DNA of 64,000 nucleotides from Raja brachyura. Its lineage: Eukaryota. How positions within the stretch are numbered: the first letter of the stretch is position 1; the number at the start of each line of letters is the position of its first letter. Where the stretch lies: positions 119,846,001 to 119,910,000 of the forward strand of contig OY740783.1 of the NCBI GenBank assembly GCA_963514005.1, in the 5' to 3' direction. Positions 15,001-18,000 of this stretch are shown piece by piece. The position numbers are program-made.

Positions 15001-18000
15001 CTGCGGCATCGCGGCCTCCCACCGGTGGCGGCGCTGCTGACTGCGGCAACGACGGCCTCCAACCGGCGGCGGCGCTGTAGCTGGGTGTCTCCTGCTATCA
15101 AAACGGCCCAATGTACCGCCAGCGGCGCTGCTGACTGCGGCATCGCGGCCTCCCACCGGTGGCGGCGCTGCTGACTGCGGCATCGACGACCTCCCACCGG
15201 CAGCGGCGTTGCGACTGGATGTCCGCTGCTCTACCGTCTCCGCGGCCTACGTCACGAAGCGTCGGTCTCCACTTCCGTTTCCCCCCTGTACACGCGCGCG
15301 CACACACGCACGCGTTAACGGACGGACAGCAGCAGCAGCGGCGGTGGTGGTGGCGACGGCAGCTGTGGCTGAGGGGAGTCGGGCTCAGGACAGCGAGGTA
15401 AGCTTCACATCAACCGCTGGAAGCCCGCACGAAATAAATTGAGGGAGGCGGGGAAATCCCGTCCAATTGGGTGGGTTTGGTCGCTGGTGGGGTTCGTCCA
15501 GCGGAGTCCGCTGACGGAGGCCGGGTCGAGCTGAGCTGAGCCGCGCCGCAGTGAGGGGGAGGGGAGAGTCGGCCCAACGGTCACTGTGGGAACCCAGCGC
15601 GCGGCCCCGCACTTCTTCCCGCCGGTTAATGGGAGCGCACCGCCCTGCCTGGCTGATGCATCGGCCAATGGGAGCGCCACGGCCGCCCTTGTCTCAGCCA
15701 ATGGCGGCGCCTGTCTGTTCGCAGCCGGTCGCTCAGCCAATGGGAGCGCCCTTCTGTGCGCGCTCGATGGCTCCGCCAATGGGAGTGCCTCGATTGCCGG
15801 CGTCTCAGCCAATGGGAGCGCCCTTCGGTGCGCGCTCAGCGGCTCAGCCAATGGGAGCACCTCGATTGTCGATGTCCCAGCCAATGGGAGCGCCTCACCG
15901 CGCAGGGCCAGCGTCTCAGCCACTGGGAGCGCCATTCGGTGCGCGCTCGACGGCTCAGCCAATGGGAGCGGCTCGATTGTCGATGTCTCAGCCAATGGGA
16001 GCGGCCGTCAGTGCGCGCTCGTTGGCTCGGCCAATGGGAGCGCATCAACTGCCGGGGTCTCGGCCATTGAAAGCGTCTGTCGGTGCACGATTGTTGTCTC
16101 ACCCAATGGAGGGGCCTCGATTGCCGGCGTCTCAACCAATGGCGGCGCCGGGCGGCGATGCACCGGGGCCGATGAGGGATCCGCTCTCCACCCGCCTCAC
16201 GGCCCGGGCCATGCGGGCGCCCTATCCCACCCCGCTGGCGCCCCACCTCCCACAGCCCGCGGACCCTTCCCGCCCGATGGGCGCACACCTCTCGGGACCT
16301 TGGTCTAGACGTGTGCTCCTCCCGACGCCGGATCCAATGGGTGCGGCCCCTCGACCAATGGGCGCGCCTGTCCTGAAATCTCGGGTAGTGCATGTGCCCC
16401 TCTCGCCACCTCGGCCAATGGGCGCGCCTGCCTCGACACCTCGGGTAGTGCATGTGCCCCTCTCGCCACCTGCGATACCTCGGCCAATAGGCTCACTTCA
16501 CCCGCCACCTCGGCGAATGGGTTCGCCAGTCATGACATCTAGGTCAAGGGATGCGCTTCTCCCGACGCCGGATCCAACATGTGCGCCCCACCATCGGTCT
16601 ACGGCTCCTCGAACAATGGGTGCGCATGTCCCAACACCGCTACCAATGGGTACACCTCTCCCGCCATCTGCGGTGCCTCGGTCAATGGGACAGTTTCTCC
16701 CCACATCTCAGTCAATGAATACACCCCTCTTGACATATACGGCACAGCGACAAATGGGAATACCCCACCCATCGTCTGCGATGCCTCGGCCAATGGGAGC
16801 GTCCCTTCTGCCATCTGCAGCTTCTCAGCAAATGCGGGTGCCCCATACACGATCTGCAGCTCCTGTGCCATTGGGTGCGTCTTTCCCTCAATCTGTGGCT
16901 GCTCGGCCAATGGGAACGCCGCTCCGTTCATCTGCGGCATCTTGGCCAATGGGCTTGCCTCCTCTACCATCTGCATTCCCTCAGCCAATGGGAGCACCTC
17001 GCTCAGCTCCTCAGGCTCCACAGCCAATGGGAACCCCTCACTCAGCTTCTCCAGCTCCACAGCCAATGGGAGCATCTCGCTCAGCTCCACGGCCACTGGG
17101 AATGCCTCGCTCGGCTCCATGGCCAATAGGAGCAACGCACCTGGCTCCTCGGTCTATTGTAGAACCTCACCCATCTTCCCCAACATCTCGGCGAATGGGC
17201 TTAGTGCTGCCGGGGTCTGAGCTAATAGGAATGCCTCATCTGGCGTCTCGCTCTGCATTGCCATTGTCCCAGCCAATTGGAATGCCTCACCCTCGGCTAC
17301 CGTTATCTCTGGCATTGCGACTCAGGGGCTATTAGATACAAAATGTTACTTGGCTAATCTGTACAGTGGTAATTTGCTGCCTTGTGGGAATTTAGTGTCA
17401 TGCAGCACAAAACCAAGCATTCGACTCAACTCGCCCTTGCTGGCCAAGATGCTCCATCCAAGCTCGTCCCATTTGCCTGCTCCTGGCCCATATCACTGTA
17501 AACCATTCCTGTCCAAGTATTTTAAATGTTGTTATTGTACCTGCCTCAACTACCTCTTCTGTCGTGGTGGGAATAGATGGTAAAGCAATGCCTGGACAGA
17601 GGAGCGAATGGGTCAATGAGGGCACCTCTCTCTGCATGGTCGATGTTTCGACCCATGGACGCAGTACCTAACCCAGCTGGCATCTCAGCCAATGGGGACG
17701 CCTTACCCCACCCACCCTGCCGGCATCCTGGCCAATGGCAGCGTCATTTGTCATGGCATGTATTTTATTTCATTAACTTTCAGTCTTTAACTGAATCTCT
17801 GTTCAGCTCAATTATTGTCTACGACAATGTTCATTATTCATGTTTTTAGAAAGACTGGTTATTTTCGACCCAAAGTTACTTTTGTTTGAGTTTGTATATT
17901 TTAAATGAACATTGTCTCCGATGTAACACTCTTAATTACACTCAATTGATGGTGGTGCTGAAGAATCTTTGTGAAGAGAATATGTTAATGGGGGAGGGTG

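What the first reader, a model, noticed from the sequence alone, without database searches (positions are those of the whole stretch)
15629..17335. Hidden 568-codon Pro-Met-Gly repeat ORF in the first intron: a possible third cistron of the HAUS3/POLN transcription unit
Seen: one + frame stays open for 1785 nt, including the less GC-rich and more diverged 3' half, while the other + frames break (e.g. stops at 16306 and 17218). Every spacing measured is a multiple of 3 (33, 39, 21, 60, 66, 69), including a 9-nt insertion between two 60-nt duplicates. Core variation looks codon-aware in this frame: Gly gga/ggt/ggc, Pro cca/ccg, Met to Leu/Ile (PLG, PIG). An AT-rich, 3'UTR-like stretch with ATTAAA (18227) follows. 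Established: mammalian HAUS3 and POLN share exon 1; I know of no such ORF there. Inference: skipping the 15397 donor, or an internal TSS, would give an intronless Met/Pro-rich disordered protein. Alternatively, dozens of in-frame AUGs could act as a ribosome sink that silences HAUS3/POLN in that isoform.
Basis: partly seen in the sequence, partly recalled or inferred. Interest (0 to 1): 0.85.

Follow-up and report, generated by a model that had tools for sequence, protein, structure and literature searches.

The report
CCAAT-box minisatellite carrying an open frame
The long "hidden gene" in the first intron of a skate HAUS3 gene is a tandem array of about 44 CCAAT-box units that reads as one open frame; the frame has survived better than neutral decay predicts, but nothing else about it looks like a protein under selection.

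Summary
One + frame is open from 15515 to 17335, with the first ATG at 15629 (568 codons). It is the longest ORF in the window. It coincides with a tandem array of 44 units built on GCCAATGGGAGC, and every unit sits in the same codon phase.

Evidence that the frame is preserved beyond chance:
- Transposon copies in the same window predict about 5-27 frame-breaking indels. None is seen.
- About 4 stops are expected in this frame. None is seen (P about 0.003-0.005).

Evidence against a protein under selection:
- Repeat units differ at pN/pS 0.93, with no third-position excess.
- The most conserved column is the synonymous third base of the Pro codon, which is the first A of CCAAT.
- 18 units match the NF-Y site RRCCAATSR, all on the + strand.
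- The ORF has no unique ends, no Pfam family and no relative among 1.84 billion representative proteins.
- Elasmobranch HAUS3 proteins carry no N-terminal extension.

Best reading (0.5): a non-coding, promoter-proximal CCAAT-box minisatellite whose open frame is a by-product. Main rival (0.33): the frame is translated and kept open by selection. Orthologous introns and RNA or ribosome data could not be consulted, so the question stays open.

The parts
14600..16600 (.). CpG island (GC 0.65-0.73, CpG observed/expected 0.85-1.17). It falls to about 0.5 by 16800-17400.
   Evidence: 200-nt windows
14805..15230 (+). Upstream promoter tandem repeats (periods 93, 134 and 40-41, so not all multiples of 3). 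They carry three + strand CCAAT boxes at 14881, 14974 and 15108.
15270..15397 (+). Presumed non-coding exon 1 of HAUS3. The start is inferred. The donor GAG|GTAAGC has its GT at 15398.
   Evidence: best donor score, 6.07, of 95 GT sites; the matrix is recalled. No transcript data.
15515..17335 (+). Open frame, 606 codons stop to stop. ATG at 15629, TAG at 17333-17335, 568 aa. Composition P 121, A 77, S 61, R 51, M 42; pI 12.
15625..16140 (+). 5' part of the array: 15 units, alternating 39 and 33 nt, with higher-order periods of 72 and 111 nt (73-91% matches). It lies inside the CpG island.
16141..16332 (+). Degenerate zone. CCAAT is lost, but in-frame Met/Leu anchors sit at 16172, 16211, 16235 and 16277 (spacings 33, 39, 24, 42). 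The frame is still open.
   Evidence: anchors read by eye from the list
16333..17310 (+). 3' part of the array: 28 diverged units of 30 and 39 nt (plus one of 21 and one of 51). Divergence from class consensus is about 28-29%. It lies on the CpG-island shore.
17424..17561 (+). Fragment of an interspersed repeat, 72-79% identical to copies at 50759, 53103, 38735 and 48542. It separates the main array from its tail.
17612..17745 (+). Three further array units after the stop, at 17612, 17688 and 17731 (phases 1, 2, 0; spacings 76 and 43, not multiples of 3). Two of them are exact RRCCAATSR sites.
18823..19771 (+). HAUS3 exon 2 (acceptor AG at 18821-18822, ATG at 18854). Residue 1 of the skate orthologue aligns at 18854.
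   Evidence: (PF14932, E 1.2e-57)

Best explanation
The feature is a non-coding minisatellite. A unit of 30-39 nt carrying a CCAAT box of the NF-Y type (RRCCAATSR) has been amplified about 44 times, all copies in one orientation, just downstream of the HAUS3 transcription start. It fills the 3' half of the promoter CpG island and its shore inside intron 1.

Inferred mechanism: the array acts at the DNA level as a dense run of CCAAT sites spaced widely enough for one NF-Y trimer each. This would extend or stabilise the open promoter of a mitotic, germ-line-expressed gene.

The 568-codon frame is a by-product. Every unit length is a multiple of 3, and the unit consensus has no stop in two of the three sense frames, so the array reads through.

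Shown: the anatomy, the motif match, the DNA-level conservation of CCAAT, and the absence of protein-level constraint. Inferred: NF-Y binding, regulatory effect, and the position of exon 1. Not explained by this reading: why no frame-breaking indel has accumulated.
For: Motif:
- 25 CCAAT lie on the + strand against 2 ATTGG in 15600-17340. The rest of the window has 70 and 77 in 60.5 kb.
- Of the 24 RRCCAATSR matches in the window (11.85 expected), 20 lie in 15663-17738, all on the + strand. The consensus comes from a passage of PMC11802806.
- 42 of the 43 spacings are at least the 24 bp minimum between two NF-Y sites, and 30-33 bp is close to the preferred 31 bp (PMC4982600 passages).

DNA-level rather than protein-level conservation:
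- The conserved block is contiguous and shows no third-position relaxation. Mean information content at codon positions 1/2/3 is 0.82/1.00/0.85.
- The synonymous A of CCA is kept in 42 of 44 units. Five other synonymous-type third positions are kept in 146 of 220 cells (P 3e-5; 0.003 when the four zone units are added).
- pN/pS is 0.93 in the ORF frame, against 0.71 and 0.85 in the other two frames.
- At NCG codons, C-to-T (non-synonymous) is seen 11 and 6 times and G-to-A (synonymous) 10 and 10 times.

No sign of a protein family:
- No Pfam family, no hit among the 8000 scored candidates, and only 4 hits with E up to 0.001 among 1.84 billion representatives. All 4 are unrelated repeat proteins.

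Array behaviour:
- The ORF starts at the first unit and ends about 25 nt after the last one.
- Array units continue after the stop, out of register.
- Other frames of the same array give ORFs of 257, 225, 218 and 200 aa. This matches the median of 218-265 codons in the neutral simulations.
- The tandem repeats upstream of the start site also carry CCAAT on the + strand.
Against: The triplet register is better kept than this reading predicts.
- 41 pairs of interspersed-repeat copies in the same window show 131 gaps per 1202 mismatches, and only 25 of the 131 gaps are multiples of 3.
- Against a minimum of 310 substitutions among the 44 units (30 columns), that predicts about 27 frame-breaking indels.
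- Counting only non-slippage gaps, the prediction is 20.6. Even on my absolute lower bound of 80 substitution events (counted from the table), it is 5.3.
- None is seen in 43 spacings, while 2 of the 2 spacings in the tail are not multiples of 3 (Fisher P 0.001).
- Stops in this frame: 0 seen against 4.1 expected (P 0.005; any of the six frames 0.013).
- The array is not a decayed trinucleotide repeat, because lags 3, 6 and 9 are not elevated.

Caveats on these numbers:
- The region was picked because it is open.
- The transition:transversion ratio among units is 156:154, which suggests that part of the 310 is misalignment.
- Internal sub-repeats at offsets that are multiples of 3 (lags 12/27 and 18/21) could generate the rarer unit lengths.

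NF-Y binding itself is untested.
Confidence: 0.5

Rival explanations
1. The frame is translated and selection keeps it open. The transcript would either retain intron 1 or start inside the CpG-island array. The product is a 568-aa, very basic, Pro/Ala/Ser/Met-rich disordered protein. Its sequence is free to drift, but its reading frame is not. The CCAAT core may do double duty as a DNA site.
For: - There are no frame-breaking indels where 5-27 are expected, and no stops where about 4 are expected.
- Neutral re-evolution keeps the frame in 11 of 4000 runs without indels and 0 of 4000 at 0.067 indels per substitution.
- The tail beyond the stop has lost register in 2 of 2 spacings.
- 42 of the 49 ATG triplets in 15400-17335 are in this frame.
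- There is no ATG between 15219 and 15629, so this would be the first AUG of an unspliced transcript.
- In the degenerate zone, CCG-ATG keeps Pro-Met while breaking CCAAT (2 of the 24 Pro-Met pairs).
- GC at codon positions 1/2/3 in the 3' half is 0.66/0.67/0.43.
Against: - pN/pS is 0.93 and differences fall 108/94/94 by codon position.
- CpG decay is symmetric between synonymous and non-synonymous sites.
- The synonymous base of the motif's Pro codon is the most conserved column.
- The ORF has no unique N- or C-terminal sequence.
- No relative was found in any annotated elasmobranch. The database does hold their HAUS3 proteins, including a skate at 89% identity.
- Every array AUG has C at position -3.
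- Met makes up 7.4% of residues.
- There is no transcript, ribosome or peptide evidence.
- The region was chosen for being open, so the stop and indel statistics are partly conditioned on that choice.
Confidence: 0.33
2. It is a plain neutral minisatellite. Both the CCAAT match and the open frame are incidental, and the array has no function at the DNA or the protein level.
For: - Any 30-39 nt unit will match some factor's motif.
- pN/pS is near 1 in all three frames.
- Long ORFs appear in four other frames of the same array.
- The conserved core has no CpG, so it may simply mutate more slowly than its CpG-rich flanks.
Against: - Other non-CpG columns of the unit (9, 15, 17) keep their major base in only 20-24 of 44 units, against 35-42 of 44 in CCAATGG.
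- The register and stop statistics are as above.
- A second, unrelated tandem repeat with + strand CCAAT flanks the same start site.
Confidence: 0.12
3. It is a recent copy or relic of a coding repeat that evolved under selection elsewhere in the genome. It would still be intact only because it is young at this site.
For: This would explain frame preservation without present-day translation.
Against: - No parent-like protein was found among 1.84 billion representatives or among the near-length candidates.
- The array grades from homogeneous to diverged along the CpG island and its shore, as expected of growth in place.
- An old repeat fragment (72-79% identical to its copies) splits off the array's tail, so the array is old at this site.
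Confidence: 0.03
4. It is an alternative 5' coding exon that adds a Pro/Met-rich N-terminal extension to HAUS3.
For: The HAUS3 frame is open from the exon 2 acceptor at 18823 to the ATG at 18854.
Against: - Apart from 15398, which lies upstream of the ORF's ATG, donor scores are all 2.9 or lower. The best sites inside the ATG-to-stop ORF score 1.4 or lower and end on codon position 1, not the position 2 needed to join exon 2 (the matrix is recalled).
- All 11 named cartilaginous-fish HAUS3 proteins listed are 600-605 aa, and residue 1 of the skate orthologue aligns at 18854.
Confidence: 0.02

Closest known systems
ERV-9/LTR12 U3 enhancer repeats bound by NF-Y
   Same: Both are tandem units next to a transcription start, each carrying a CCAAT box, in many copies and one orientation. 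[quoted passage not shown] CCAAT pairs in LTR12 sit at the 24-bp minimum distance (PMC4982600, passages).
   Different: Here the array is not part of an LTR (no repeat-family match to the units in the window self-comparison). It lies in an intron downstream of the start. It has about 44 units of 30-39 nt, no GATA partner was looked for, and it reads as one open frame. NF-Y binding is untested.
Multi-CCAAT promoters of G2/M genes
   Same: Both have several CCAAT boxes in direct orientation about three helical turns apart. [quoted passage not shown] HAUS3 is a spindle (augmin) gene (Pfam PF14932).
   Different: Those promoters have two or three boxes upstream of the start. This locus has three upstream and about 25 intact boxes inside intron 1. 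The commonest spacing, 39 bp (21 of 43), is not a whole number of turns.
Coding minisatellites (repeat domains of mucin-like or proline-rich proteins)
   Same: Unit lengths are all multiples of 3, and the frame is kept although units have diverged by about 13-29% from their class consensus. In Daphnia, repeats with units over 10 bp that are multiples of three are denser in coding sequence than in introns (PMC3152781, passage). The comparison with mucin-like proteins is recalled, not tested.
   Different: The ORF has no unique flanking coding sequence, no family, no relative and no excess of synonymous change. The conserved element is a DNA motif that includes a synonymous site.
Promoter and CpG-island minisatellites that modulate expression
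   Same: Both are GC-rich tandem arrays inside or beside a promoter CpG island. One example seen only as a search listing is the BORIS/CTCFL promoter minisatellite (PMC4973313).
   Different: The other arrays in this window have periods of 22, 26, 40-41 and 134 nt, with indels. This one keeps a strict triplet register.

Membership tests
NF-Y-type CCAAT-box cluster | Intact CCAAT pentanucleotide with flanks matching RRCCAATSR | tested here: met
   There are 25 CCAAT on the + strand in 15600-17340. There are 18 exact RRCCAATSR matches in the ORF plus 2 in the tail, out of 24 in the window against 11.85 expected. The consensus is from PMC11802806 (passage).
NF-Y-type CCAAT-box cluster | Neighbouring sites at least 24 bp apart, so that each can hold a trimer | tested here: met
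   42 of the 43 spacings are 30 nt or more, and one is 21. The limit is from PMC4982600 (passage).
NF-Y-type CCAAT-box cluster | Constraint on the DNA motif itself, independent of coding | tested here: met
   The synonymous A of CCA is kept in 42 of 44 units, against 146 of 220 at five other third positions (P 3e-5; 0.003 when the four zone units are added). Units were found by their core, so this is partly circular.
NF-Y-type CCAAT-box cluster | Occupancy by NF-Y and an effect on transcription | not testable with these tools
   No ChIP, footprint or reporter data are available.
Protein-coding gene | Open frame with a start and a stop, with length changes only in multiples of 3 | tested here: met
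   The frame survives neutral simulation in 11 of 4000 runs or fewer.
Protein-coding gene | Purifying selection on amino acids (synonymous changes exceeding non-synonymous ones) | tested here: not met
   pN/pS is 0.93 over 32 nearest-neighbour unit pairs, with differences of 108/94/94 by codon position. CpG decay is symmetric. The comparison is between paralogous units only, not orthologues.
Protein-coding gene | Relatives or a known domain | tested here: not met
   There are 0 Pfam families and 0 hits among 8000 scored candidates. The 4 weak hits among 1.84 billion representatives are all unrelated repeat proteins. The atlas top score was 0.86 with recognition 678, which is uninformative.
Protein-coding gene | Transcript, ribosome or peptide evidence | not testable with these tools
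   No expression data are held, and no eukaryotic nucleotide collection was open.
Neutral non-coding minisatellite | Indels of all lengths accumulating at the local neutral ratio to substitutions | tested here: not met
   0 frame-breaking indels were seen. The expectation is about 27, 20.6 for non-slippage gaps only, or 5.3 on the lower bound.
HAUS3 coding exon (N-terminal extension) | A donor in the right phase, and orthologues with longer N-termini | tested here: not met
   No usable donor was found in the ORF. Orthologues are 600-605 aa and start at 18854.

The most novel reading that the evidence does not exclude
The array is two things at once. It is a run of about 44 NF-Y-type CCAAT boxes, and its sense frame is also translated, from intron-retaining or array-initiated transcripts, into a 568-residue, pI-12, Pro/Met-rich disordered protein. 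On this reading a protein-coding frame was born from, and still overlaps, an amplified promoter element. Selection acts on the DNA motif and on keeping the frame open, but not on the amino-acid sequence.
Probability: 0.3. Interest if true: 0.85.

Novelty: new variant of a known kind. Interest (0 to 1): 0.5.

Why it matters
If the frame is only a by-product, this is a cautionary case. A GC-rich minisatellite whose unit length is a multiple of 3 can imitate a 568-codon gene, and the right control is unit-level substitution and indel statistics rather than ORF length. It would also be an unusually large natural array of CCAAT boxes at the promoter of a spindle gene whose first exon, in other vertebrates, is shared with the testis-expressed POLN. 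That makes it a convenient system for asking what site number and spacing do for NF-Y-driven promoters.

If the frame is kept open by selection, it would show a protein-coding frame arising from a promoter-element array, with a DNA code and a reading-frame constraint overlapping. It would also add a third product to an already unusual transcription unit.

Tried and rejected
- **Family and relative searches on the ORF.** Pfam, the near-length word-indexed search, phmmer against all representatives and the protein atlas gave nothing usable. The four phmmer hits are a butterfly pro-resilin-like protein, an anchovy uncharacterised protein, a stick-insect hypothetical protein and an unnamed 170-aa record. 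All matched through their own repeats.
- **Rfam on 13500-19500.** No family reached its gathering score.
- **N-terminal extension of HAUS3.** Rejected.
- **Origin from a decayed trinucleotide repeat** as a cause of the register. Lags 3, 6 and 9 are not elevated in the array, although the upstream promoter repeat has a lag-3 match of 0.447.
- **Low indel rate from a lack of homopolymers.** Runs of 3 or more occur at 52 per kb in the array against 61 per kb in the control. Only 13 of the 85 one- or two-base control gaps lie in such runs.
- **GC3 drop in the 3' half as a coding signal.** It is not matched by a third-position excess of differences, so it may come from the founder unit.
- **POLN exons.** tblastn with a named rhinoceros HAUS3-POLN fusion model found only the HAUS3 part, so POLN is unverified in this window.
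- **Failed or corrected calls.** One search failed on a wrong coordinate and was corrected. One search failed on a search-term sign and was not repeated. In one search the run at 0.109 indels per substitution crashed on an emptied unit, so only ratios from 0 to 0.067 are reported.
- **Not used.** Structure prediction, complex prediction, the search for related loci and collection scans. The only open collection holds bacteria and archaea.
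Full report
**Context.**
- The window has no N.
- The ORF at 18854-19813 matches Pfam HAUS-augmin3 (PF14932, E 1.2e-57).
- The nearest named protein is HAUS3 of the skate Rhinoraja longicauda, at 89% identity over exon 2. 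An unnamed cluster reaches 96%, and other rays, sharks and a chimaera follow at 77-60%. I therefore take the window for a skate.
- Mapped exon by exon with that skate protein, HAUS3 coding exons lie at 18854-19771, about 24000-24556, 27870-28160 and 29587-29817. Residue 1 aligns at 18854.
- I did not build or search a joined model.
- POLN exons were not detected in the window.
- That HAUS3 and POLN share a non-coding first exon, one promoter and one CpG island is shown for zebrafish, mouse and human (PMC4591814; abstract and passages of two sections read). For this skate it is an inference.
- The only strong donor between 15250 and 17420 is GAG|GTAAGC at 15398 (score 6.07 of 95 GT sites, with a matrix I recalled). 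The exon 2 acceptor is at 18821-18822. On that model the finding lies in intron 1.

- One + frame is open from 15515 to 17335 (606 codons). From the ATG at 15629 it gives 568 residues and then TAG. It is the longest ORF in the window.
- The other five frames carry 18, 4, 17, 23 and 8 stops over the same span.
- Of the 25 + strand CCAATGG in the window, 24 lie in 15665-17732.
- A position-weight scan that ignores phase units from 15625 to 17272, all in the same codon phase. Their spacings are 39 (21 times), 30 (13), 33 (6), 21, 51 and 168.
- Inside the 168-nt gap the motif has decayed. In-frame Met/Leu anchors still sit 33, 39, 24 and 42 nt apart (read by eye).
- The 5' part is a 39/33 alternation with 72- and 111-nt higher-order periods. 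The 3' part is made of diverged 30- and 39-nt units.

**Is the open frame more than chance?** I ran three tests.
1. *Column shuffle.* I shuffled each alignment column among units of one length class, which keeps column composition. This gives 4.1 expected stops in this frame against 0 seen (P 0.005). The chance that any of the six frames is stop-free is 0.013. The other frames sit at their expectations.
2. *Neutral control for indels from the same window.* 41 pairs of interspersed-repeat copies show 1202 mismatches and 131 gaps, of which only 25 are multiples of 3.
   - The 44 units need at least 310 substitutions on a minimum spanning tree over 30 aligned columns. That predicts about 27 frame-breaking indels.
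   - Counting only gaps that are neither in runs nor tandem copies, the prediction is 20.6.
   - On an absolute lower bound of 80 substitution events (my count of alleles minus one per column), it is 5.3.
   - None is seen.
3. *Re-evolving the array from its four class consensuses.* With the observed divergence (345 differences), one frame stays open over all 549 codons in 11 of 4000 runs without indels, 3 of 4000 at 0.01 indels per substitution, 1 of 4000 at 0.03 and 0 of 4000 at 0.067. The median longest ORF is 218-265 codons, which matches the runner-up ORFs actually present.

*Caveats on these tests.*
- The region was chosen because it is open.
- Transitions and transversions among units are 156:154, against 698:504 in the control, so part of the 310 may be misalignment.
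- Internal similarity at lags 12/27 and 18/21 could generate the rare unit lengths in steps that are multiples of 3.
- Even so, the absence of 1-2 nt indels is not explained by a lack of homopolymers or by a trinucleotide-repeat origin.
- The neighbouring promoter repeat has periods of 40, 41 and 134 nt.

**What is conserved.**
- Column by column, the conserved block is contiguous and centred on CCAATGG. Mean information content is 0.82, 1.00 and 0.85 at codon positions 1, 2 and 3.
- The best-kept column is the third base of the Pro codon CCA (A in 42 of 44 units). Five other synonymous-type third positions keep their major base in 146 of 220 cells (P 3e-5). Adding four decayed units that the scan missed gives 42 of 48 (P 0.003).
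- Pro before Met is CCA in 22 of 24 cases. Elsewhere in the ORF it is CCA in 29 of 97.
- The two bases before CCAAT are purines in 41 of 44 units each, while the codon they belong to flips freely between Gln and Arg.
- Between nearest-neighbour units (32 pairs among the 40 units of 39, 30 or 33 nt; the 21-, 51- and 168-nt intervals were left out), pN/pS is 0.93 in the ORF frame and 0.71 and 0.85 in the other two. Differences fall 108/94/94 on codon positions 1/2/3.
- CpG decay at NCG codons is symmetric between the non-synonymous and the synonymous side (11 and 6 against 10 and 10).
- The conserved thing is therefore a DNA motif, not a peptide.
- The motif fits the NF-Y site RRCCAATSR (PMC11802806, passage). 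Of 24 exact matches in the window, 20 lie in 15663-17738, all on the + strand.
- 42 of the 43 spacings exceed the 24-bp minimum for two NF-Y trimers, and 30-33 bp is near the preferred 31 bp (PMC4982600, passages).
- All five CCAAT bases are needed for binding (PMC3730095, passage).
- NF-Y binding here is an inference.

**Surroundings.**
- The CpG island runs from 14600 to 16600 (observed/expected 0.85-1.17) and fades to about 0.5 by 16800-17400. The homogeneous 5' half of the array is therefore inside the island and the diverged 3' half is on its shore.
- Upstream of the presumed start, a different tandem repeat (14805-15230) carries three more + strand CCAAT boxes.
- After the stop, the array decays.
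- An old interspersed-repeat fragment sits at 17424-17561.
- Three more units follow at 17612, 17688 and 17731, with spacings of 76 and 43 nt, out of register. Yet the middle one scores as well as the best units in the ORF.
- The contrast is 2 of 2 against 0 of 43 (Fisher P 0.001). It is suggestive, but it rests on three units.

**The ORF as a gene.**
- The protein is P 121, A 77, S 61, R 51, L 49, G 45 and M 42 of 568 residues, with 9 acidic residues and pI 12.
- It has no Pfam family and no hit among the 8000 scored candidates of near length.
- Among 1.84 billion representatives it has only four hits with E up to 0.001. All are repeat proteins from unrelated animals or an unnamed record.
- The same database holds HAUS3 from ten named elasmobranchs and a chimaera, so annotated proteomes of this group are represented, and none contains a relative.
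- The ORF begins at the first unit and ends about 25 nt after the last. It has no unique ends.
- In its favour: 42 of the 49 ATG triplets in 15400-17335 are in frame. No ATG lies between 15219 and 15629, so an unspliced transcript would meet this ATG first. The first poly(A) signals after the stop are at 18227 and 18599.
- No donor inside the ORF could join it in frame to HAUS3 exon 2, and elasmobranch HAUS3 proteins are 600-605 aa. An N-terminal extension is therefore rejected.

**Weighing.** Two signals point in different directions.
- The sequence pattern says DNA element: a CCAAT box under constraint, amino acids drifting neutrally, no relatives, and an ORF that is coextensive with the array.
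- The register says reading frame: no frame-breaking indel and no stop in 1.7 kb of units that differ by 13-29% from their class consensus.

I know of no DNA-level process that forbids 1-2 nt indels. Helical phasing does not fit, because 39 bp is 3.7 turns. Because the region was selected for being open, and because I cannot count how many comparable arrays the genome holds, I do not treat the small P values at face value.

My estimates:
- A non-coding CCAAT-box minisatellite whose frame is a by-product: 0.5.
- Translation with selection for an open frame: 0.33.
- A purely neutral array: 0.12.
- A recent copy of a coding repeat: 0.03.
- A HAUS3 extension: 0.02.

**Comparison with known systems.**
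- It works most like the CCAAT-bearing tandem repeats of ERV-9/LTR12 enhancers and like the multi-CCAAT promoters of G2/M genes (PMC3730095 and PMC4982600, passages). It differs in being intronic, about 44 units long and not LTR-borne.
- It resembles coding minisatellites only in its strict triplet register.
- The searches I ran turned up no description of such an array or ORF at HAUS3. They were not exhaustive.

**What stayed unchecked.**
- Orthologous introns of other cartilaginous fishes, any transcript or ribosome data, and NF-Y occupancy.
- Supplementary files of the papers were not consulted.

Noticed in passing
window 1-1147 and 8270-9416; ORFs at 1312-6857: Two 1147-bp stretches are 100% identical direct repeats. 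They flank four consecutive + strand ORFs, two of which match Exo_endo_phos (2985-4481) and RVT_1 (4485-5588). This is a LINE-like element between perfect direct repeats. It could be a very recent duplication or an assembly duplication.
   Followed up: partly
window 14805-15230: The promoter-side tandem repeats (periods 93, 134 and 40-41) have a strong lag-3 signal (0.447). They carry three + strand CCAAT boxes at 14881, 14974 and 15108. This is a second, unrelated CCAAT-bearing repeat at the same start site.
   Followed up: partly
window 13740-13939: A 200-bp stretch is 97% identical to its own reverse complement, so it is a near-perfect palindrome. Related copies lie at 32715-32813 and elsewhere, so it is probably a small foldback element.
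   Followed up: no
P0003 (anchovy LOC134441450, 2178 aa): This annotated teleost protein has long runs of a 13-residue repeat containing Gln-Pro-Met-(Val/Gly). That is the same period and core as the skate units. Whether its DNA also spells a CCAAT-box repeat could not be checked. If it does, such arrays in reading frames may recur.
   Followed up: no
window 58058-58666: A Tc1/mariner-type transposase remnant (HTH_Tnp_Tc3_2, E 7e-18).
   Followed up: no
window 14058-14735: A 225-codon open stretch with no Pfam match ends at the edge of the CpG island. It overlaps interspersed-repeat copies (13946-14539 matches 41197-40580 at 73%). The island therefore begins right after an old repeat insertion.
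   Followed up: partly
window 29818-64000: No POLN-specific exon was found with a named mammalian HAUS3-POLN fusion protein. The rest of the window is dense in interspersed repeats.
   Followed up: partly
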